From a phage: a DNA stretch of 41,268 nt. Below, piece after piece: positions 853-41,268 of the stretch; the first letter of the stretch is position 1; every line of letters starts with the position of its first letter. Below the pieces are notes generated by a model that saw nothing but the letters and a program-made list of their open reading frames with translations, was not told the origin of the DNA and made no database searches. The DNA is taken from the sequence record PX216937.1. One strand, given 5' to 3'. The position numbers and the translations under genes are program-made.

Positions 853-2613
853 TTACCACTCAATGAAGCAGCTAGAGTCTCCGTCGTCCTCGTAGTAGAT
901 GTCCACGCCACCAACATCGTAGCTATGGATAGCATCACCACCAATGGTCTGTTTCTCCATGTGGTGTTCAAGGAACTCAAGGGTCATCTCTTCTTCACCT
1001 ACACGGCTGTCCACAAGCATCCCTTCACGCAGGAACTCGATACCCAATGCGATAGCATCAAGTCGGTCATCGTGTGCCACAGCGCCTCGCTCACGGGTCA
1101 TACGGGTCATCTGATAGAACGCACTGTAGCGAACATCATGTTTCCCATCTAGGTCACGAGCAGTCTGATAATCTTCACGGATAACCTCATCACGAATGAC
1201 CAGCTTGTGCGCACCCATCAACGGCTCGATAGTATCGCAGATTCGCATCTCCTTCATGCCCTTAGCACGGATTTCCTCTAAGGCACACTTGTGGTGCTTC
1301 AGAAGAATCGGAGAGAAAATCTTACCGAACATACCGTCACCAAAGTTGGACTCATGGACTACTGTCTGTACCTTCCACTGCTTGGCCTTCTTAGCGAGCT
1401 TCTCTAGGGTAGCATCTTCGTAACCACCACGGAACCCACCGACTTCCATCAAGTAGATATAACCATTAAGTGAGTATAGTACTGCATACCCGGTCTCATC
1501 CTTACCACGACCACTTGGGTCAATGACCAGAATCTTAGACTGATACTCAGCGGTACGAGAAGAGCACGTATGGAACGCATGGATGTCATCACCCTTCAGA
1601 CCAACGTTAGGAAGTTCCTCATTGCGGTTCTGACGGTTCGGCAACCACTGGTAAGACAATGGGGCACGTTCAGGGTCCACAGCGCACACGATAGCGTCAC
1701 GGAGGCGTAGCGGGTACTTCTCGGCATCACTAAGGTTCGGGTTAAGCATGAACTGGAGTGTGTAGCCAGCTTTACCATATTCGAGTTCACGTTCACGGAG
1801 GTCATCCATATCGAATCGAACAGGGTCAGTAGGTTGACCACGGAGTAACTCGAAGCCCTCATCATATTCAGCCTTAAGCATCGGAGCCAAGCGGTCCCCA
1901 TAGTAGAGAGCCTCAGCGTCATTACGTGGATACTGTGCAGGCCAGATTACTGTGCTGTACCCTTTGTTATCCTCAAGTTCCTTATAGAGAGTCATCTCGG
2001 TTTGAGGTGTCCCAAGGTAGATAACACGAGAGGTAGGCAGCGGCTTAAGTAACGCAGCAAACTCAGTTACCAACGTCCAGAGCTTCTCACGGGCAGAACT
2101 CGTAGAGCTATTACCGGGAACCTCAACGTCATCCGCGATGATAATGTCAGCACGGCTACCAGTCAACTGACCAGTGATACCTACAGACTTCACAGAGGGT
2201 GAGTGGTCTGGTTTAGCCAATCCAACGTCGAAGCTAATCACAGAGTCTCGCTGTCCCGGTCGAGGTTTCAACTCAGAGAGGAACGGCAGCAGGTCAATGA
2301 TGTTCTTGATGAAGATGGAGTTAGCATCAGCACGTTCCTTAGAGGCAGACACGATGAGCACCTTGAGTTGAGGGTCACGCCATAAGACCCACACAACGAA
2401 CGCACAGGTGATAAAGGACTTGCCGATACCACGGAACGCCTGAAGGATAAACTTCTTGTGGTCGCCGTTAGCGAGTGTACGTGCCATATCAATCTGACAC
2501 TTGGTTGGTTTAGGTAAGTTCAGAGCCTTCCATAAGACGAACAGGAAAGCGACGAAGTCACCCTTAAGTTGCGCTATGATTAACGCATTCTTAGCTTCTT
2601 GGGATTGTGACAT
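853..2613 (-). CDS. 19: Terminase large subunit (DNA maturase B)
   Basis: 586-aa ORF; same length and terminal position as T7 gp19; Walker-type motif region (GIGKSF) present. Confidence 0.95.
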
Positions 2614-35062: not shown

Positions 35063-37714
35063 TTAGGCAAACGCAAAGTCTGACTTAAGGATTTCTTGGA
35101 GGTCAAGAGCGCCTTTAGCTGGCATCTCAGGCATCTTGTCAAGCTGTGACTCGTGCAACTGGTCAGCAAACTGTTCATAGAAGTCTGCAAGTACATCGTT
35201 CTCTTCGTAAGTGTTAACCATCGTTTCACGCACTGCTTTAAACAGGTTGCCAGCATCAGCAGGAATAGTACCAAAGGAGTCATGAATCAGTGCAAAGGAT
35301 TCCACACCGTAGACCTCATTGGAGCGAACCACAGTCATGCGCAGGTGACTACCATCCATTGAGTGAACAAAGTTAGGTGCGATGCCTGACTCCTGCTTAC
35401 GTGCGTCAATTCCGCTATCCTTGTTGGTGTTCACGGTAGGCTGCAAACGAATCTGCCCCAAGAACATCAGGTTCAAACGAGTCTGTACTGGCTTCTTGTA
35501 TTCCTGCCAGACCGGGAAGCCATCAGGAGTTACCCAATGTACCGCGCAGCGCTTGCGGAGAACCTCTTTAGTCTTCTTGTCCTTGACTTCAGCAGCCAGA
35601 AGTTTAGCAGCAGACTTCAACCAGTTCATCGCTTCAACCGCTGCGACAACTGTGACCGTTACAGCGTTCCAAATCAGTTTAGCCATATAGCCAGCCGCTT
35701 GGTTCGGTTGAGTGAACATCAATCCCTTGCCATCGTCGATAGCGGGCTGAATGGTGTCCTCAAGAACTTGGTCACGGAAGCCGTACTCTTTGGAACCGTA
35801 AGCCAACGTCATGACAGAACGTTTAGTGACCTTGCGGGTTACACCGTATGCCAGCCACTGACCAGCCAGTTCCTTCGTGCCTAACTTCAGCTTCTCAGTG
35901 ATTTCTCCCGTGTCCTTATTGGTCACTGTCTCTACTTCGTTGTCGGTCCCGTTGATAACATCTTGATTCAGGATTTCGTTAACACGGTCAGCAACAATGC
36001 GGTAGATGTCTTGGACTTCCTTGCTCGGCAGCAGGTTAACAGCGCGTCCACCTACTTCATCACGCAGCATTGCAGAGAAGTGCTGAATACCAGAGCAAGA
36101 GCCATCGAACGCCAGCGGCAGAGAGCAGTTGTAGTTCATACCGTGGTGCTGCACACCTGCATACTCAAAGCAGAATGCGAGGAAGCAGAACGGAGAGTCT
36201 TGTTCAGCCCACCAAGTGTTAGCAATAGGGTCAGCCGCAACGCTCATGATGTTCTCGTGGTTGTCCTCAATGAACTTGATGCGTTCTGCAAAGTCCACCT
36301 TGTCCACACCAGCAGTGTTTGCACCGTGAATCTTCAGCCAGTAGTACCCATCGACACCAATCGGTTTACCTTTAGCGAGCGTTAACAGACCCTTGGTCAT
36401 GTCGTTGCCTTGCGGGTTGAACATCGGTACAGCGTACACACGACCGCGCCAGTCCATGTTCATCGGGAACCAGATAGCTTTAAACTGTGCGAACTTATTG
36501 GCTTGTCCTAACATGAACTCCATGCTCATGCGACGAGACACGCGAGCCTTCTCTTTGCGATAGATTGCGGAGGCCGCTTTCTTCCACGCTTTCAGAGCCG
36601 CTTCGTTCGTGTCGATGTCTTCAGGTTTGACCGGAAGTTCACCACGTTCGAGAGCAGGTACATCTTCAACCGGGCAATGCTTCCAGTTCACAATCTCGTT
36701 GACCACTGCCAGAACCTTCTTGTTAATCTTCCAAGGAGTATTCTGTGCGATGTTCACCGCCTTGTAAACTTCAGGCATGTACACGTCGTTGTAACGCTCA
36801 AGTCCCTTCTTGGAACCAGTGCGAACCAGAGAGAGAGGCTTGCGACCAGCAGCCCAATATCCACCACCTACCGGAGAAGTCCAAGGCTTCGGCGGGACCA
36901 CACAAGGTTGGTACATTGGAGCGATTGCAGCCAGTGCGCCAGCACGTTTAGATAGCAGGTCAACATATTGCTCGGTTAACTGGATGTACTCACCATCCTT
37001 CTCAACGTTACCAGCAAACGGTCGGTGTAACTCAACGAGACCAGTAGACCCGATGAGCAGTTCCAACATGCGCACACCAACGTGGATTGATTCTTCAGGT
37101 GTCCATGTAGTCCACTTGGTTTGCAGTTGACCAGCATCTAACATCTTGCCTTCTACAGCTTGCATGAATGCTTTCTTGTAGACGATACCAACGCGCTTGT
37201 TCAGTGCCTCCTGTACGTGATTCTTAAAGTGTTTCGCTTCTTCATCACGAATGCGTCCGAAACGTAACTCATCTTCAATGCTACGACCAATCTTAGTGGC
37301 GACCGATTGAAGGTTCGTGTATTCCTCTTTCGTCAAGCAAGCCAGTGTGACCTTCAGTGTGATGAATGCGGCAGCTTCCGGTGCAATCTTCTGTACCAGA
37401 TTGTAGGCCACTGGACGCTTGCCACGCTTAGCTTCCACTTCGGTGAACCAAGTGTTCCATGCTTCAATGAACTTCGGTGCGAGAGATGACAGGAGCGGTT
37501 TAGCCACTGCGTTATCACCGAATTCACCAGCTTTGATTTGACGTTCCATAGCCTTCAGGAAACGCTTCTCGCCTTCGGTGTGCGCTTCGTGTTCCAACTC
37601 AAGCTGCGTAGCTGCAAGCTGTGCGCCATAATGGTCAGCCAGAATGTTGTACGGCTGAATTGCGTTAGCGATGTCAGAGAAGTCGTTCTTTGGTGCGTTG
37701 ATTACGTTAGTCAT
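35063..37714 (-). CDS. 1: Single-subunit DNA-directed RNA polymerase (T7 RNAP family)
   Basis: 883 aa, the same length as T7 RNAP; long identical blocks (GRRPLALVRT-like, KAIWFP.NMDWRGRVYAV, GNDMTKGLLTLAKGKPIG, DSPFCFLAFCFEYAGVQHHG, LPLAFDGSCSGIQHFSAMLRDEVGGRAVNLLPS, specificity-loop region NTNKDSGIDARKQESGIAPNFVHS, C-terminal FAFA). Confidence 0.99.
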   Translation of the reverse strand: MTNVINAPKNDFSDIANAIQPYNILADHYGAQLAATQLELEHEAHTEGEKRFLKAMERQIKAGEFGDNAVAKPLLSSLAPKFIEAWNTWFTEVEAKRGKRPVAYNLVQKIAPEAAAFITLKVTLACLTKEEYTNLQSVATKIGRSIEDELRFGRIRDEEAKHFKNHVQEALNKRVGIVYKKAFMQAVEGKMLDAGQLQTKWTTWTPEESIHVGVRMLELLIGSTGLVELHRPFAGNVEKDGEYIQLTEQYVDLLSKRAGALAAIAPMYQPCVVPPKPWTSPVGGGYWAAGRKPLSLVRTGSKKGLERYNDVYMPEVYKAVNIAQNTPWKINKKVLAVVNEIVNWKHCPVEDVPALERGELPVKPEDIDTNEAALKAWKKAASAIYRKEKARVSRRMSMEFMLGQANKFAQFKAIWFPMNMDWRGRVYAVPMFNPQGNDMTKGLLTLAKGKPIGVDGYYWLKIHGANTAGVDKVDFAERIKFIEDNHENIMSVAADPIANTWWAEQDSPFCFLAFCFEYAGVQHHGMNYNCSLPLAFDGSCSGIQHFSAMLRDEVGGRAVNLLPSKEVQDIYRIVADRVNEILNQDVINGTDNEVETVTNKDTGEITEKLKLGTKELAGQWLAYGVTRKVTKRSVMTLAYGSKEYGFRDQVLEDTIQPAIDDGKGLMFTQPNQAAGYMAKLIWNAVTVTVVAAVEAMNWLKSAAKLLAAEVKDKKTKEVLRKRCAVHWVTPDGFPVWQEYKKPVQTRLNLMFLGQIRLQPTVNTNKDSGIDARKQESGIAPNFVHSMDGSHLRMTVVRSNEVYGVESFALIHDSFGTIPADAGNLFKAVRETMVNTYEENDVLADFYEQFADQLHESQLDKMPEMPAKGALDLQEILKSDFAFA

Positions 37715-37740
37715 TGTTGCCTCACGTTGTTAAGAAAGTT

Positions 37741-37790
37741 TATCTATAAAGGCCAGCAGTCAGTGCCGACCTTGAAGATACACCTTATCA
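37741..37790 (-). promoter_or_regulatory. RNase III-type hairpin (R1-like) between gene 0.7 and gene 1
   Basis: Minus-strand AAGGUCGGCACUGACUGCUGGCCUU imperfect hairpin; no phage promoter here, consistent with host-RNAP transcription of gene 1. Confidence 0.45.
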
Positions 37791-38888
37791 GCCCATCAGT
37801 TTAGCGTCAAGTACCTTGTCGATGTTCAAAGGGAGACCCGCTTGGATTGCGAGGCGGTCCCCTAGTAGCCACTTAAGGCCGTTCACTTGGTCAATCTTGC
37901 GTATCGTTGCATTACCATTACGCAGCCAGAAGTCATGCCATGCAGACCCCATGAGCATCTCGGCACGGCGTTCGTTGCGCTCAATCGCACCGCGTTCCCT
38001 GCGGATTGCCATAAAATGTAAGCGGTCACGTTCAGCTACCTTAGCACGTAACTTACGGTTGCGCTTACGGCGTTTCATGTTAGATTTCTTGTTCATCCAG
38101 TAAGTGCCTTTAGGGTCACGCTTGGCCTTGCGGTTGCGACAGCGTTCAATGATGCGCTCGTTAGCTATCGCCTCAACCTCGGCAATCAGTGCTTCAGGGT
38201 CCAGAGGAAAACCGTCCTCACGTTCACGGTCATGTGAGAAACTCACCGGGTCAGTGATGTACGGAACATCGTTATCGTCGAACATAATGTTCCCGCTGTG
38301 CATGTCGAAGGACGCAATGCCATGGAAGAACTCACGAATCAGCTTGCATGTCTCAACAAACTCCCCGTCCCACCCAGTGCGGAAGTCATAAGCCCCAGAG
38401 TTCCACTCAATAACCTCACGTGCAATATCAGCGTACTCGTCGTGCACCTTGTTACCAAGTGGCGCACATTCATTCAGGGCATCGAGAACCACCGTGTAGC
38501 AACCTGCATGACGTGCTACGTGATAGACGTTAGGGATACCCGCTCGGCCTTGGTGCATCCTACAGAATGCAGTGTATGCAGCACCTGAATCCTCTTTCTT
38601 AAAGCCAACCTTGATGACCCGACCCGGTAACAATTCGTGCGAGTAGGCCGCGCTAAAGTGACCATTGCCTAACATGCGGAACCCTGCATCACGCATCAGT
38701 GCGCCCAATGTGTGCCACCAGTCCTGATACTCCAAGCCGTTCGAGCCATCGGTGTCGTTACCATCGCATGTTTCACCGTTCACGATGTCAGCAGCCAGTG
38801 CAACCAGAAGAGGCTGGCGCTTGTCCAAGTCGCTAATCGGAAGAGACTTGATGATTGCCAGACGTGCCTGAATGTCGGTGTAGTTCAT
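37788..38888 (-). CDS. 0.7: Serine/threonine protein kinase with host-shutoff region (gp0.7)
   Basis: 366 aa; ETCDG, GFKMLGNGHFSAAYSH.LLP.RVIKVGFKKEDSGAAYTAFCRM.QGR.GIPNVY, HAGCYTVVLDAL, GWDGEFVETCKLIR.FF.GIASFDMHSGNIMF and DVPYITDPVSFS match recalled T7 gp0.7. Confidence 0.95.
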   Translation of the reverse strand: MNYTDIQARLAIIKSLPISDLDKRQPLLVALAADIVNGETCDGNDTDGSNGLEYQDWWHTLGALMRDAGFRMLGNGHFSAAYSHELLPGRVIKVGFKKEDSGAAYTAFCRMHQGRAGIPNVYHVARHAGCYTVVLDALNECAPLGNKVHDEYADIAREVIEWNSGAYDFRTGWDGEFVETCKLIREFFHGIASFDMHSGNIMFDDNDVPYITDPVSFSHDREREDGFPLDPEALIAEVEAIANERIIERCRNRKAKRDPKGTYWMNKKSNMKRRKRNRKLRAKVAERDRLHFMAIRRERGAIERNERRAEMLMGSAWHDFWLRNGNATIRKIDQVNGLKWLLGDRLAIQAGLPLNIDKVLDAKLMG

Positions 38889-38909
38889 TAGATTGTGTCC
38901 TATTTAAGT

Positions 38910-39128
38910 TTAAGAAATAGCGTTCAATGTATTGGTTAATGCTTGTTCGAGTGCTGCGAGCTTCTGTGCTTTGACCTTGGCCTTTCGTCTATGCCATGCA
39001 GCCCGCTCCTGTTCCTTGCGTCGTTCGAGGTTGTTCTCACGCCAAGTTCTCACGATACGCCTGTTTGCTGCATTGAGTGTACCATTAGACCTATAGCCTT
39101 TCTTCAGTTCATCAGTGTGTTGCAACAT
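38910..39128 (-). CDS. Hypothetical small basic early protein
   Basis: 72-aa ORF, Arg/Lys-rich, coiled-coil-like; lies in the early region between the SAMase-like gene and the kinase. Confidence 0.5.
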   Translation of the reverse strand: MLQHTDELKKGYRSNGTLNAANRRIVRTWRENNLERRKEQERAAWHRRKAKVKAQKLAALEQALTNTLNAIS

Positions 39129-39324
39129 AGAAGATACCTACCTTGTTAGCCTTAAAGCGCCCGTTGAGTTCACGGACTGTGAATCGTGGTAGAAAGCCAT
39201 ACTTCAGGTGCGAGAAGTTAGCCTTGTGTACCTTGAGACCCTTGCGGAAGTCCCGAAGGAAGTACGCCCCAATCAGAGCGTACATTGTGATTACGAAGAG
39301 TGCGACCATTAGACCACCTTCCAA
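39112..39324 (-). CDS. Hypothetical small early protein with N-terminal hydrophobic segment
   Basis: 70-aa ORF (the true start may be the internal Met MVALFVITMYALIGAYFL); overlaps the SAMase stop by a few codons. Confidence 0.45.
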   Translation of the reverse strand: MEGGLMVALFVITMYALIGAYFLRDFRKGLKVHKANFSHLKYGFLPRFTVRELNGRFKANKVGIFYVATH

Positions 39325-39764
39325 CCACGTCCGAACTCATCGACCGTGTAGTTACCAGTCAGTTCAGCATCTTGTGCGACCATCTGGAAAGACCCAATGC
39401 GCTCAGTCTTCCAACCACCCAAGCCACCAGCAAAGATTAGTGCGGCGCTGTGAGTCTGTGCCTTATAGACCAGCACACAGTCTTGCTCATAGTCGTTACA
39501 AGCCAACCGTGCGACACTTACAGCTTGTGCCTTGGTTGTGCAGCGTACTCGGATGGTTTGCTCTTCAGCGGGTGACTCCATGCCAGCCTCATGGTAACAA
39601 CCTGTCAAGTCAGTAGACTCAACACTGCCATATTCCATCGGTGCATTGCGTAAGCTGTTGACTAAGCGACGATGACGGCTAAGGTTATCCAAGTGGTGCA
39701 GGTTAGAGCGGAACGCTGATACCAGTACATAGAATACGTTTGCAGGCTCGTTAGTGTAAATCAT
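39309..39764 (-). CDS. S-adenosyl-L-methionine hydrolase/lyase (T3-type SAMase-like anti-restriction protein)
   Basis: 151 aa, MIYTNEPANVFYVLVSAFRSNL...YGSVESTDLTGCY...VRC..KAQA..VARLACN..EQDCVLVYK.QTH...TIDEFGR.W.V; strong resemblance to the T3 gene 0.3 SAMase as I recall it (152 aa). Confidence 0.8.
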   Translation of the reverse strand: MIYTNEPANVFYVLVSAFRSNLHHLDNLSRHRRLVNSLRNAPMEYGSVESTDLTGCYHEAGMESPAEEQTIRVRCTTKAQAVSVARLACNDYEQDCVLVYKAQTHSAALIFAGGLGGWKTERIGSFQMVAQDAELTGNYTVDEFGRGWKVV

Positions 39765-39786
39765 GATAGTGCCTCATTATGTGTGT

Positions 39787-39840
39787 GTTAGTGATAATCA
39801 AAAAGGCCACTCGCTAGGAGCGACCTTGAGTTTATCACTC
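39787..39840 (-). promoter_or_regulatory. RNase III-type hairpin (R0.5-like) between the Ocr and SAMase-like genes
   Basis: gataatcaaaaaggccactcgctaggagcgaccttgagtttatcac; imperfect hairpin of the same family as 40210..40265. Confidence 0.5.
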
Positions 39841-40179
39841 AGCAGACTCTTCGACTTCCTCAAGATATTCGTCCAGTAAGTCCTCAGCGTCTTCCCAAAG
39901 GTCAATCGTTAATTGCTCATAGATACGTGCTTGCAGAATACGGATTACATCCTTGGTGTCCGGCATCAGACCAGAATCCTCAAACTCAAGGTTAATGCCT
40001 TCGCTTGCCATTACGCTGAAAACCTCGCTGTAGTAGTGCGGAACAGCATTATCAGCAGCCATGTGCACTGCATCGTGCAGGCCATCAGTGTCACGGATGT
40101 CATCATAACGGATGTTTTCTTTCAGCATTTCGTAAGCGTGGTCAAAAACGTTGTTATAAGTCATGTTAGACATAGCCAT
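39835..40179 (-). CDS. 0.3: Ocr (overcome classical restriction) DNA-mimic anti-restriction protein
   Basis: 114 aa, [48 protein letters not shown]...[56 protein letters not shown]; near-identical to recalled T7 Ocr. Confidence 0.97.
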
Positions 40180-40209
40180 CTTGTGTTACCTCATGTGGTT
40201 GTTAGTCAG

Positions 40210-40265
40210 TGATTATCAAAAAGGCTCCTCGTATAGTGCTTTCGAGTCACCTTGAGTTAATCACT
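40210..40265 (-). promoter_or_regulatory. RNase III-type hairpin (R0.3-like) upstream of the Ocr gene
   Basis: Minus-strand GUGAUUAACUCAAGGUGACUCGAAAGCACUAUACGAGGAGCCUUUUUGAUAAUCAC imperfect hairpin. Confidence 0.5.
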
Positions 40266-40534
40266 ATCGGCTTCGTCACTGTTTAAACGCTAGTGCGTTC
40301 ACGTCATCCCGTAGTTCTTGACTACCTGTCTCGCAGTAGGGAATTACACGACCAAATTGTTAAAGAACTTTAAGTGCAGGTTTGTTAGCACCGAGTCACT
40401 TTCAGTGTGTGACCTCACAAGAACGTTATGTATGTTTCCGACAAGCTCTTTATTATCGTGGTCGCTTGTGCTTTCGGCATCTATCCACTATGTCGCGTTT
40501 TTACACCTACGACACTCGGTGTCTACTGCGATAC

Positions 40535-40564
40535 ATCTTACATCTTGTTGTTGCTGCTTGTCAA
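40535..40564 (-). promoter_or_regulatory. Host sigma70-type early promoter (A3-position): TTGACA - 18 bp - TAAGAT
   Basis: Minus-strand TTGACAagcagcaacaacaagatgTAAGAT; the hexamers are the same as those I recall for a T7 early promoter. Confidence 0.55.
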
Positions 40565-40630
40565 CTACTTTTGTTTGTCACCGTGACACCTCATGTTGTT
40601 TCATAGGGCGACCATTTGTTGACGACTGCT

Positions 40631-40659
40631 ATACTACGTTATTGCTTTCGTTGAGTCAA
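40631..40659 (-). promoter_or_regulatory. Host sigma70-type early promoter (A2-position): TTGACT - 17 bp - TAGTAT
   Basis: Minus-strand TTGACTcaacgaaagcaataacgTAGTAT. Confidence 0.5.
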
Positions 40660-40765
40660 CCACTTTCTTATGTCTGGTTGATGACTACTTGAGACCCTTC
40701 AGCATTACCAGATAACTCGCGGTCTTGTCTGGTAGTTGATAGCGTTGTGTCTCTCAACGGTTGCT

Positions 40766-40794
40766 ATAGTCTCATAGTTGTTTCTCAGAGTCAA
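40766..40794 (-). promoter_or_regulatory. Host sigma70-type early promoter (A1-position): TTGACT - 17 bp - GACTAT
   Basis: Minus-strand TTGACTctgagaaacaactatgaGACTAT, followed by ...GAGAGACACAACG, which resembles the T7 A1 initial transcribed region (GAGAGGGACACGG). Confidence 0.45.
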
Positions 40795-40869
40795 CCATTA
40801 GTTGAAACTTTAAGTAGTCTTAGAGTCTCTTTAAGTTAGACATATAGAGAAGGGCAATCAACATAGACC

Positions 40870-40892
40870 ATTCTCAATAGTGAGTCGTATAG
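40870..40892 (-). promoter_or_regulatory. Phage RNAP promoter (phiOL-like), CTATACGACTCACTATTGAGAAT
   Basis: Promoter-like match near the genome left end, upstream of the sigma70 promoters, as phiOL is in T7. Confidence 0.65.
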
Positions 40893-40959
40893 CTGTATGG
40901 TCTTTAAGGCTGGTCTAATAGTGGTAACGATAGGTGTCTATAGACTGAAGGCACCGACT

Positions 40960-41230
40960 GAAGGTTAACATAAGGATAGGCAGCCATAAGGATAGACATA
41001 AGGTTAGCGTAGCTAATAAGAGGTGACATAAGGTGTTAACTCTAAGAGGAAACATAAGGTGATTACAGATAGGGACACAGAGAGGACTACATATAGTGGT
41101 CATAAGGTCCCACTAAGCACTACATCTAGTGGTAACACCCAAAGTTAACCCAATGTCTCACATAAGGATTGACATTAAGTAAACCATAAGTTAACATAAG
41201 GGGTGGCACTCTTTGGGTGGAACTGAAGGA
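40960..41230. repeat. Array of CATAAGG heptamers (about 9 copies, with CTAAGAG variants) at the genome end; similar copies at 100..350
   Basis: Repeated acataagg/ccataagg/tcataagg at irregular spacing across the terminal repeat and adjacent unique sequence at both genome ends. Confidence 0.6.
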
Positions 41231-41268
41231 GGCCATAGGGGGGAACTCGGTGTGTATGAACTATGAGA
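41071..41268. repeat. Direct terminal repeat (copy at the phage left end); identical to 1..198
   Basis: Exact 198-bp identity with the window start. Confidence 0.85.

What the first reader, a model, noticed from the sequence alone, without database searches (positions are those of the whole stretch)
38910..39324. Two small early ORFs of unknown function between the SAMase-like gene and the kinase
A 70-aa ORF with a hydrophobic N-terminal segment and a 72-aa highly basic ORF occupy the position of T7 genes 0.4-0.6, a class of early host-takeover proteins. I could not match either to T7 proteins from memory, so they may be novel early effectors.
Basis: inference. Interest (0 to 1): 0.35.

Follow-up and report, generated by a model that had tools for sequence, protein, structure and literature searches.

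The report
Known T3/T7 early genes 0.6 and 0.62
The two small ORFs are real, strongly conserved early genes of T7-like phages (T3-type gene 0.6 and the gene called 0.62, 0.65 or "0.6B" in Kvp1 and T7), so they are not new genes, although nobody has shown what they do.

Summary
The window is a Berlinvirus-like T7-group phage in reverse orientation, with gene order ocr, SAM lyase, ORF A, ORF B, kinase 0.7, RNA polymerase.

- **ORF A:** its real start is the ATG at 39309, giving 65 aa rather than 70. It is T3-type gene 0.6 (phrog_2385), 98% identical to Kvp1 and BA14 and 62% to T3. It occurs in 572 phage records, all annotated "hypothetical". It has an N-terminal membrane helix and a small, invariant basic beta domain.
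- **ORF B:** 72 aa, pI 11.2, one long helix. It is Kvp1 gene 0.62 and is 86% identical to the T7 ORF first named 0.65 and later "possible 0.6B". That ORF looks broken in the T7 reference only because NC_001604 lacks one A that resequenced T7 genomes carry.
- **Both are real genes:** pN/pS for ORF B is 0.11. Each has a strong Shine-Dalgarno site. ORF B starts at an ATG 17 nt inside gene 0.6, and that ATG co-varies with the presence of a downstream gene. This indicates coupled independent initiation, not frameshifting.
- **Function:** untested. The only lead is T7 "Gp0.6", a reported MreB inhibitor.

The finding is ordinary and these genes are already known.

The parts
39112..39309 (-). Gene 0.6 (T3 type), 65 aa: membrane helix at residues 2-18 plus a basic cytoplasmic mini-domain. 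ATG at 39309-39307, stop TGA at 39114-39112.
   Evidence: phrog_2385 E 6e-29. 98% identical to Kvp1/BA14 0.6 and 62% to T3 0.6. AF2 pLDDT 91: helix 2-27, three strands, short C-terminal helix. Kyte-Doolittle mean 2.24 over residues 2-18, pI 10.6. C-terminal residues are invariant despite synonymous variation.
39310..39324 (-). Five extra codons (TTG start) of the 70-aa reading of the first ORF. Probably not translated; they lie inside the SAM lyase C-terminus.
   Evidence: Shine-Dalgarno dG -4.2 for the TTG against -8.0 for the ATG. Homologues start at the ATG.
39314..39322 (-). Shine-Dalgarno site GGAAGGTGG for gene 0.6, inside the end of the SAM lyase gene (TAATG stop/start overlap at 39311-39307).
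38910..39128 (-). Gene 0.62 (= T7 '0.65' / '0.6B' ORF), 72 aa, pI 11.2, one long helix over residues 20-71 with a leucine-heptad C-terminal end.
   Evidence: phrog_8393, profile positions 53-102 of 111, E 2.6e-13. 86% identical to resequenced T7 and 88-93% to LPST144 (88%), Kvp1 (90%), pO103 and Shigella phage A7 (93% each). pN/pS 0.11. AF2 pLDDT 88. Physical properties.
39136..39144 (-). Shine-Dalgarno site AAGGTAGGT for gene 0.62, embedded in codons 56-58 (K-V-G) of gene 0.6, 7 nt upstream of the ATG.
   Evidence: dG -8.9 kcal/mol, the strongest of the early genes in the window and within the top ~6% of all ATGs on this strand.
39112..39128 (-). 17-nt overlap of gene 0.6 (frame 0) with gene 0.62 (frame +1). 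It holds the 0.62 ATG inside TTCTATGTTGCAAC.
   Evidence: The same geometry occurs in Kvp1, LPST144, T7, Yanou, YpP-R and pO103. The ATG co-varies with the presence of a downstream gene in 76 loci.
39309..39764 (-). Context: SAM lyase (T3 0.3-type 'SAMase').
   Evidence: PF23780 E 1e-39, phrog_2226
37788..38888 (-). Context: gene 0.7 serine/threonine kinase, starting 21 nt after the stop of gene 0.62.
   Evidence: phrog_2828 E 8e-178
39835..40179 (-). Context: ocr (T7 0.3-type DNA mimic), upstream of the SAM lyase gene.
   Evidence: PF08684 E 4e-61

Best explanation
**What the region is.** It holds two genuine class I (early) genes of a T7-group phage. The host RNA polymerase transcribes them from the left-end promoters as part of the operon ocr, SAM lyase, 0.6, 0.62, 0.7, gene 1.

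**Gene 0.6 (65 aa).** It is the T3-type gp0.6. It has one N-terminal membrane helix. Because the positive charges sit after that helix, the roughly 45-residue basic domain (three strands and a short helix) is probably tethered to the cytoplasmic face of the inner membrane.

**Gene 0.62 (72 aa).** It is the orthologue of the T7 ORF variously called 0.65 or 0.6B. It is a soluble, very basic protein made of one long helix. The last three heptads of that helix look like a short zipper, so it may form a dimer.

**How 0.62 is expressed.** It is translated from its own ATG and Shine-Dalgarno site. Both lie inside the conserved last 35 nt of gene 0.6, so initiation is coupled to 0.6 translation. It is not made by a +1 frameshift. 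The conserved 3' end of the upstream gene acts as a fixed start adaptor, and different phages carry different small genes behind it.

**What is shown and what is inferred.**
- Shown here: identity, coding status, start sites, overlap geometry and mosaic exchange.
- Inferred: both proteins are dispensable host-takeover accessories.
- Most likely target class (my estimate about 25-30%): the host cell-envelope and morphogenesis machinery (MreB/elongasome). T7 'Gp0.6', from this same locus, is reported to bind and inhibit MreB, and several other phages use small early proteins, some of them membrane-located, against the divisome or elongasome.
For: - **Identity:** HMM and BLAST matches and the annotations of Kvp1, BA14, T3, T7 and LPST144.
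- **T7 link:** phrog_8393 is a 111-position chimera. T7 0.6A fills positions 1-53 and ORF B matches positions 53-102.
- **T7 reference:** the only difference between NC_001604 and AY264774 in this stretch is one A, which restores the 72-aa ORF. The 72-aa T7 protein is seen on 333 contigs. The exact 111-aa fusion sequence is on 3 contigs and carries only annotation-derived names.
- **Coding status:** pN/pS 0.11 in frame, 0.28-3.3 in the other five frames. Gene 0.6 shows synonymous-only variation across residues 41-65.
- **Starts:** Shine-Dalgarno dG -8.0 and -8.9. The +1-frame ATG is present in 55 of 76 loci, and 51 of those have an ORF of at least 30 aa behind it. Of 21 loci without the ATG, 16 have no such ORF (Fisher p 6.5e-9; the loci are not phylogenetically independent).
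- **Structure:**
- **Mosaicism:** ORF B is 82-86% identical to Teseptimavirus copies, while the adjacent kinase is only 51-56% identical. Shigella phage A7 has a T7-type 0.6A in place of T3-type 0.6, followed by the same 0.62.
- **Early operon:** sigma-70-like promoters lie at 40564-40535 and 40659-40631 on the same strand.
- **MreB lead:** PMC5624674, PMC6965359, PMC5502672 and bioRxiv 10.64898/2026.09.14.751387, all citing Molshanski-Mor 2014.
Against: - There is no direct evidence of translation (proteomics or ribosome profiling) for either ORF in this phage.
- The function is not shown. No match of any significance came from Pfam, NCBIfam, PADLOC, PDB sequences or Foldseek against PDB.
- T3-type gp0.6 is not detectably homologous to T7 gp0.6A beyond the last 14 residues (E 0.043), so the MreB function cannot be transferred by homology.
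- I could not read the primary MreB paper. I therefore do not know whether T7 'Gp0.6' meant 0.6A, the 72-aa ORF or both.
- The ATG/ORF association counts related genomes, not independent events.
Confidence: 0.75

Rival explanations
1. ORF B is not an independent gene. It is the C-terminal half of a +1 frameshift fusion with gene 0.6, as in the T7 'possible gene 0.6B' annotation and the RAST note 'occurs due to frameshifting prior to stop codon of Gp0.6A'.
For: NC_001604 annotates a joined 111-aa 0.6B. Several records copy the frameshift note. ORF B is in the +1 frame relative to 0.6 and overlaps its stop codon.
Against: - ORF B has its own ATG with the strongest Shine-Dalgarno site of the early region.
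- That ATG is lost exactly where no downstream gene exists.
- The proposed shift site (CAC UGA U) has no slippery P-site codon, since tRNA-His cannot re-pair on ACU. Both the His codon and the stop codon vary (CAC/CAT, TGA/TAA) among loci.
- The earlier T7 record and the resequenced T7 record both annotate the ORF as independent.
- The odd C-terminus of the T7 fusion comes from a missing base in the reference.
Confidence: 0.05
2. gp0.6 is a membrane protein that works in superinfection exclusion, or counters a membrane-associated host defence or exclusion system, rather than acting on cell-shape machinery.
For: It is a small early single-pass membrane protein. It sits in a block of anti-restriction and host-shutoff genes (ocr, SAM lyase, kinase). 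The neighbouring slot turns over rapidly, as accessory loci involved in phage-host conflict typically do.
Against: gp0.6 itself is highly conserved across phages of many host genera, with 572 records and invariant residues. That is unlike fast-evolving anti-defence genes. It has no PADLOC or other match. There is no experimental evidence either way.
Confidence: 0.25
3. gp0.62 is a nucleic-acid-binding regulator. A basic helix followed by a short zipper would dimerise and bind DNA or RNA, for example to modulate host or early phage gene expression, rather than act as a cytoskeleton effector.
For: It has 17 K+R in 72 residues and pI 11.2. It forms a single helix over residues 20-71. The basic stretch at 22-56 is followed by L57, L60, L64, L68 and I71 in heptad spacing, with hydrophobic moment 0.81. 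W29 and W45 and the arginines are invariant or nearly so.
Against: It has no match to any DNA- or RNA-binding family. The bZIP signature N-x2-AA-x2-[SC]-R is absent by inspection of the sequence. A long basic helix could equally bind an acidic protein.
Confidence: 0.25
4. One or both ORFs are chance or decaying reading frames with no function.
For: Both are short and have no known domain. ORF B is absent from most relatives, for example BA14 and P694. T7 early-region deletion mutants are viable.
Against: pN/pS is 0.11 with pS 0.51 over 15 distinct sequences and no frameshift or stop. ORF A is invariant at the protein level across hundreds of phages. Both have strong Shine-Dalgarno sites.
Confidence: 0.02

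Closest known systems
T3 gene 0.6 protein, also annotated as phiYeO3-12/BA14 gp0.6A and Kvp1 gp0.6 (phrog_2385)
   Same: ORF A is a member. It has the same 65-aa length, the same membrane helix, the same motif PRFTVR..NGRFKANKVGIFYVATH and the same position directly upstream of the 0.7 kinase. It is 98% identical to Kvp1/BA14 and 62% to T3.
   Different: Only point differences, such as L48 where relatives have R, P or S at a variable site. The exact sequence is not in the 15-billion-protein collection. The family has no assigned function.
T7 ORF 1781..1999 ('0.65 protein' in V01127, 'possible gene 0.6B' in NC_001604, '0.6B protein' in GU071091), also annotated as Kvp1 gene 0.62 (second half of phrog_8393)
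   Same: ORF B is a member. It is 72 aa, 86% identical to resequenced T7 and about 90% to Kvp1. It has the same 17-nt overlap with the upstream gene and the same short distance to the kinase start.
   Different: In T7 the upstream partner is 0.6A rather than T3-type 0.6. The reference T7 entry reads a different C-terminus because one A is missing.
T7 gp0.6A (53 aa)
   Same: It occupies the same slot as ORF A, upstream of and overlapping the 0.62-type ORF. It shares the last ~45 nt (14 aa..NK[IV]G..Y..TH), which carry the Shine-Dalgarno site and ATG of the downstream gene. In Shigella phage A7 it replaces T3-type 0.6 in an otherwise window-like early region.
   Different: It has no membrane helix (highest Kyte-Doolittle mean 0.24) and no detectable homology outside the tail (hhalign probability 1.2%, E 0.043). 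It is a positional analogue, not a homologue.
T7 'Gp0.6', reported inhibitor of the actin-like protein MreB (Molshanski-Mor et al. 2014, as cited in PMC5624674, PMC6965359 and bioRxiv 10.64898/2026.09.14.751387)
   Same: It comes from the same locus, and ORF B is the orthologue of one of the two T7 ORFs there. It is small, early, dispensable and growth-inhibitory when expressed.
   Different: It is not known here which T7 ORF carries the activity, because the primary paper was not available. Nothing was tested for this phage.
T3 gene 0.65 family and its relatives (phrog_10380 and phrog_23914: 54-, 56- and 77-aa proteins)
   Same: They use the same slot, the same overlapping +1-frame start and a similar first 6-9 residues (M-S/L-Q-R/H-T-D/N-L-K), and they are small and basic.
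   Different: They are not detectably homologous to ORF B (hhalign probability 0.2-12%), although they are related to each other (probability 89-97%).
Small early phage proteins, some membrane-located, that target the divisome or elongasome (for example PhiNM1 Gp11, PMC11237401; Mosigvirus AV110 Emp, bioRxiv 10.64898/2026.09.14.751387)
   Same: They belong to the same general class as ORF A: a short early protein located at the membrane or cell periphery.
   Different: There is no sequence or fold similarity. This is an analogy only.

Membership tests
T3-type gp0.6 (phrog_2385) | Significant full-length match to the family profile | tested here: met
   E 6.1e-29 over residues 5-70 of the 70-aa reading and profile positions 6-66 of 70. 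174 homologous clusters.
T3-type gp0.6 (phrog_2385) | About 65 aa, with an N-terminal hydrophobic helix followed by the conserved motif D-F-x-K-G-L-x-V-H-K-A ... P-R-F-T-V-R-x-x-N-G-R-F-K-A-N-K-V-G | tested here: met
   All invariant columns are present. Kyte-Doolittle mean 2.24 over residues 2-18. AF2 helix 2-27 plus three strands.
T3-type gp0.6 (phrog_2385) | Position in the early operon: downstream of the 0.3-type gene and upstream of kinase 0.7 | tested here: met
   The order holds in 71 IMG/VR loci and in the annotated phages, apart from a few loci that lack a detectable 0.3-type gene or kinase.
T7 0.65/0.6B-ORF and Kvp1 0.62 family (C-terminal half of phrog_8393) | Significant sequence match over the full 72 aa | tested here: met
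   phrog_8393 E 2.6e-13. 53 of 62 matching phage records cover at least 80% of the query. 97% identity to P0001.
T7 0.65/0.6B-ORF and Kvp1 0.62 family (C-terminal half of phrog_8393) | ATG 17 nt inside the 3' end of the upstream 0.6/0.6A gene, in the +1 frame, with the kinase start about 20 nt after its stop | tested here: met
Programmed +1 ribosomal frameshift gene (0.6A to 0.6B fusion) | A slippery or shift-prone P-site codon at the junction, and no independent initiation signal for the downstream frame | tested here: not met
   The junction is CAC UGA U, where tRNA-His cannot re-pair in +1. The His and stop codons vary among loci. The downstream frame has its own ATG and a Shine-Dalgarno site of dG -8.9, and the ATG co-varies with the downstream gene.
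Programmed +1 ribosomal frameshift gene (0.6A to 0.6B fusion) | A fusion protein detected in infected cells | not testable with these tools
   No proteomic data are available. The literature found only repeats the annotation.
T7 gp0.6A | Sequence homology over the body of the protein | tested here: not met
   hhalign of T7 0.6A against the gp0.6 alignment gave probability 1.2% and E 0.043, with only the last 14 residues aligned.
MreB inhibitors (functional class of T7 Gp0.6) | Binds MreB, causes rounded or lemon-shaped cells, and mreB mutations confer resistance | not testable with these tools
   The only support is the literature lead.
bZIP-like basic region plus leucine zipper | The basic-region signature N-x2-A-A-x2-[SC]-R, followed in register by at least four leucine heptads | tested here: not met
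   By inspection of the sequence, no N/AA/[SC]R spacing is present, and only about three heptads exist (L57, L64, I71 with L60 and L68). There is no Pfam bZIP match.

The most novel reading that the evidence does not exclude
The locus that the field calls T7 'gene 0.6' may really be two independent overlapping genes: a swappable upstream effector (T7-type 0.6A or membrane-anchored T3-type 0.6) and the 72-aa basic-helix protein. If so, the reported MreB-inhibiting activity, or a second unrecognised host-takeover activity, could belong to the 72-aa protein present in this window. The invariant 3' end of gene 0.6 would then be a dedicated translational-coupling adaptor that lets T7-group phages plug in at least five unrelated small-gene cassettes at one site.
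Probability: 0.15. Interest if true: 0.45.

Novelty: already known. Interest (0 to 1): 0.17.

Why it matters
As a discovery it matters little. Both genes were annotated in T3, T7, Kvp1 and hundreds of other phage genomes years ago.

Three things are still useful.
- gp0.6 is one of the most conserved uncharacterised early proteins of T7-group phages. It occurs in 572 records, 410 of them Klebsiella phages, a group that includes candidates for phage therapy.
- The T7 reference annotation of '0.6B' as a frameshift fusion rests on a one-base gap in the 1983 sequence. That annotation has spread into protein-family databases (phrog_8393 is a chimera) and into automatic annotation notes.
- Anyone following up the reported T7 Gp0.6-MreB interaction should test the two ORFs separately.

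Tried and rejected
- **Domain and family searches.** Pfam, NCBIfam and PADLOC gave only sub-threshold noise for both proteins: DUF3149, DUF7607 and RepA_IncFII.
- **PDB sequence profiles.** Nothing for gp0.6. For gp0.62 there were two hits with E near 1.
- **Foldseek against PDB on both AF2 models.** The best E-values were 2.1 (YkfF) and 9.2, which are not meaningful. The third fold-search job (viral library) was not used.
- **Profile search for gp0.6 in 1.84 billion representative proteins.** It found only 12 clusters. The 11 I retrieved are all short; most keep the membrane helix and the GRF-type motif, several are truncated or frameshifted copies, and none is fused to an informative domain.
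- **Homology of ORF B to the T3 0.65 family.** Rejected by hhalign.
- **Homology of T7 0.6A to T3-type 0.6.** Rejected except for the shared tail.
- **Frameshift fusion.** Rejected (see rival explanations).
- **bZIP reading of gp0.62.** The signature is absent.
- **Rfam on 37000-41268.** No hits.
- **Literature.** One search was swamped by numeric '0.6a/0.6b' matches. The primary MreB paper (PNAS 2014, PMC4284602) is not held, so I could not establish which T7 ORF was cloned as 'Gp0.6'.
- **Plus-strand and alternative-frame ORFs in the region** (for example 39143..39616 +, 38943..39149 +). These are treated as by-products of codon composition. Antisense frames stay open in homologues, but their pN/pS is 0.28-3.3 against 0.11 for the sense frame.
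Full report
**1. Observation.** The window is a T7-group phage in reverse orientation. It is Berlinvirus-like, and the half I searched (20000-41268) is about 93% identical to Escherichia phage P694. On the minus strand the left-end early operon reads as follows:
- ocr, 40179..39835
- SAM lyase, 39764..39309
- ORF A, 39324 or 39309..39112
- ORF B, 39128..38910
- kinase 0.7, 38888..37788
- RNA polymerase, 37714..35063

Sigma-70-like promoters lie upstream at about 40564-40535 and 40659-40631. One has a hydrophobic N-terminus (Kyte-Doolittle mean 2.24 over residues 2-18). The other is very basic (17 K+R, pI 11.2).

The 70-aa reading of ORF A uses a TTG inside the SAM lyase gene. The real start is almost certainly the ATG at 39309, giving 65 aa. 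It overlaps the SAM lyase stop as TAATG and follows GGAAGGTGG (dG -8.0 against -4.2 for the TTG). It also aligns with the start of nearly all homologues.

**2. Identity of ORF A.**
- It matches phrog_2385 (E 6e-29).
- It is 98% identical to the proteins annotated as gene 0.6 in Kluyvera phage Kvp1 and gp0.6A in BA14, and 62% identical to T3 'gene 0.6 protein'.
- tblastn finds it in 572 phage records: 410 Klebsiella phages, then Escherichia, Salmonella, Pectobacterium, Yersinia, Erwinia and Serratia. Every listed match is annotated 'hypothetical protein' or not annotated.
- A profile search of 1.84 billion representative proteins found only 12 clusters. The 11 I retrieved are all short; most keep the membrane helix and a P-R-F-T-x-R-x3-G-R-F-x2-N motif, and several are truncated or frameshifted copies. 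The family therefore appears confined to T7-like phages and is never fused to an informative domain.

**3. Identity of ORF B.**
- It matches positions 53-102 of the 111-position phrog_8393 (E 2.6e-13). T7 gp0.6A fills positions 1-53 of the same profile. The family is therefore built on the T7 '0.6B' fusion annotation.
- ORF B is about 90% identical to Kvp1 gene 0.62 and 86% identical over all 72 residues to an ORF at 1781..1999 in nearly every resequenced T7 genome.
- That ORF was annotated as an independent '0.65 protein' in the 1981 left-end record V01127. It became a joined 'possible gene 0.6B' in V01146/NC_001604 and is again an independent '0.6B protein' in GU071091.
- A direct alignment shows the only difference in this stretch between NC_001604 and AY264774 is one A (CAAGG-ACAAG against CAAGGAACAAG). 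With it, T7 reads the same 72-aa protein ending ..NTLNAIS.
- The 72-aa T7 sequence is seen on 333 contigs in public data. The exact 111-aa fusion sequence is on 3 contigs and carries only annotation-derived names.

**4. Both are real genes.**
- For ORF B I used 15 distinct full-length DNA sequences from Berlinvirus and Teseptimavirus genomes. Over the non-overlapping codons 7-72 they give pS 0.51 and pN 0.057, so pN/pS is 0.11.
- The two other sense frames give 1.4 and 2.5. The antisense frames give 1.2, 0.28 (the usual mirror frame) and 3.3. No homologue carries a stop or frameshift apart from the T7 reference.
- For ORF A, 62 distinct sequences show abundant synonymous change and almost no amino-acid change across residues 41-65. 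The conservation therefore acts on the protein, not only on the embedded ribosome-binding site.

**5. How ORF B is expressed.**
- ORF B starts at an ATG 17 nt before the end of gene 0.6, in the +1 frame. It is preceded at 7 nt by AAGGTAGGT (dG -8.9), the strongest Shine-Dalgarno site of the early genes here and within the top ~6% of all ATGs on the strand.
- In 76 loci carrying gene 0.6, the sequence TTC TAT GTy GCA, which contains the ATG, is present in 55. Of those, 51 have an ORF of at least 30 aa in that frame.
- Where the kinase follows 0.6 directly (gap 22-36 nt), the codons are TAC ATC and there is no ATG. Of 21 loci without the ATG, 16 have no downstream ORF.
- Of the five exceptions, T3 starts one codon later at a TTG, two have downstream genes with their own later start, and one frame runs on into the kinase gene; I did not examine the fifth (L070). 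Fisher p is 6.5e-9, with the caveat that related genomes are not independent.
- The proposed T7 shift site, CAC UGA U, offers no +1 re-pairing for tRNA-His. Both the His codon and the stop codon vary among loci.

I conclude that ORF B is translated by independent, probably coupled, initiation. The 'frameshift' note that automatic pipelines still attach to it is a legacy of the 1983 annotation.

**6. A mosaic two-slot locus.**
- *The slot behind gene 0.6* holds different cassettes in different phages, all using the same overlapping ATG:
  - the 0.62 family (62 phage records);
  - the T3-0.65 family and its 54- and 77-aa relatives (phrog_10380 and phrog_23914);
  - a 59-aa family (phrog_12100);
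  - an endonuclease VII homologue (PF02945);
  - a 27-aa hydrophobic peptide in BA14;
  - nothing at all.
- A Bro-N protein also occupies this slot in some phages, but it more likely starts at its own ATG a few codons downstream.
- hhalign relates the 0.65, 54-aa and 77-aa families to each other (probability 89-97%) but not to 0.62 (probability 12% or less).
- *The upstream slot* is also exchangeable. Shigella phage A7 shares the window's ocr (96%), 0.62 (93%) and kinase (83%), yet carries a T7-type 0.6A instead of T3-type 0.6.
- T7 0.6A and T3-type 0.6 share only the last 14 residues (about 45 nt), which is exactly the stretch holding the downstream Shine-Dalgarno site and ATG.
- ORF B is 82-86% identical to Teseptimavirus copies, while the adjacent kinase is only 51-56% identical. 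The cassette has therefore moved between genera.

**7. Structure.**
- AF2 with 58 homologues gives gp0.6 a confident model (best model pLDDT 91; the other four models 70-78). It has a helix over residues 2-27, strands at 31-36, 40-46 and 52-57, and a helix at 59-64.
- There are no charges before the hydrophobic helix and R19, R22, K23, K26 and K29 follow it. By the positive-inside rule this places the C-terminal domain in the cytoplasm (inference).
- gp0.62 is predicted as a single helix over residues 20-71 (pLDDT 88). Its basic stretch at 22-56 is followed by L57, L60, L64, L68 and I71 in heptad spacing, with hydrophobic moment 0.81. This is compatible with a dimer that binds a polyanion or an acidic protein.
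- Neither model nor either profile matches anything in the PDB.

**8. Function.** Nothing was shown here and nothing is established for these exact proteins.
- The early region of T7 is dispensable in the laboratory.
- The one experimental lead is that T7 'Gp0.6' binds and inhibits MreB and produces lemon-shaped cells. This comes from Molshanski-Mor et al. 2014, as described in PMC5624674, PMC6965359, PMC5502672 and bioRxiv 10.64898/2026.09.14.751387.
- I could not read the primary paper, so I do not know whether the active product was 0.6A, the 72-aa ORF or both.
- ORF B is the orthologue of one of those two ORFs, and ORF A is the positional replacement for the other. Small early proteins at the membrane or cell periphery that act on the divisome or elongasome are also an established class (PMC11237401; the Emp preprint).
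- On that basis I rate 'modulators of the host envelope/morphogenesis machinery' as the single most likely function, at about 25-30%.
- Two alternatives are about equally likely: a defence or exclusion role for gp0.6, and a nucleic-acid-binding role for gp0.62.

**9. Verdict.** Both ORFs are long-annotated, well-conserved 'hypothetical' early genes of T3/T7-like phages, so they are already known. The finding has low interest as a discovery. The side results have modest practical value:
- the corrected start of ORF A;
- evidence against the 0.6B frameshift;
- the one-base gap in the T7 reference;
- the cassette adaptor at the end of gene 0.6.

Noticed in passing
window 39309-40290 (minus strand): The phage carries both anti-restriction genes that normally alternate at position 0.3: ocr (T7 type) followed by SAM lyase (T3 type). 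In the phage collection only Shigella phage A7 (same order), P694 (reverse order) and, from a partial match, probably P151 show both. Only two records, both of phage A7, cover at least 80% of this 1-kb stretch, out of 204 with any match.
   Followed up: partly
window 39765-39850 and 40180-40275 (minus strand): Each of ocr and the SAM lyase gene is preceded by its own copy of a hairpin plus ribosome-binding-site leader, with 81% mean column identity between copies. The copy at 39827-39803 scores as a stem-loop followed by a T run. They resemble the R0.3 RNase III site annotated in T3, which suggests the two 0.3-type genes were stacked as complete cassettes. Rfam has no model that matches.
   Followed up: partly
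L004 (NC_001604) 1098-1100 against L087 (AY264774); T7 coordinates about 1896: The T7 reference sequence lacks one A (CAAGG-ACAAG) compared with resequenced T7 genomes (39,937 against 39,938 bp). This truncates the 72-aa ORF and produced the odd C-terminus of 'possible gene 0.6B'. PHROG family 8393 is a chimera of 0.6A and this ORF as a result.
   Followed up: yes
L006-L076, just downstream of gene 0.6: The slot between gene 0.6 and kinase 0.7 is a cassette hot-spot. At least five unrelated families share the same overlapping ATG: 0.62, the related 0.65/54-aa/77-aa group, a 59-aa family, an endonuclease VII homologue and a 27-aa hydrophobic peptide. A Bro-N protein also sits there but probably uses its own later start. 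When the slot is empty the ATG is lost through synonymous or conservative codon changes in 0.6.
   Followed up: yes
L077 (Shigella phage VB_Ship_A7) 1308-1517: This close relative has a T7-type 0.6A (..MLKHYVMPIHTNNG..) in place of T3-type 0.6, followed by the same 0.62. The two unrelated upstream genes therefore behave as alternative alleles of one slot.
   Followed up: partly
L092 (Salmonella phage JSS1) 1135-1398; also P0005 (phage vB_EcoS_P1338): These are 87-aa variants of gp0.62 with a 15-residue insertion after MLQH (..INAANLVHALDAGAQNK..). The conserved core starts at LKKGY, so the N-terminus is tolerant of change.
   Followed up: no
P0002 (Escherichia phage vB_Eco_D226): The 72-aa gp0.62 orthologue of this phage is deposited under the name 'DNA-directed RNA polymerase'. 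This is an obvious annotation error that could propagate.
   Followed up: no
window 37788-38888 (minus strand): The 0.7 kinase matches PHROGs strongly (E 8e-178) but has no Pfam-A hit at E <= 0.1. Its C-terminal third is extremely basic (..KKSNMKRRKRNRKLRAK..).
   Followed up: no
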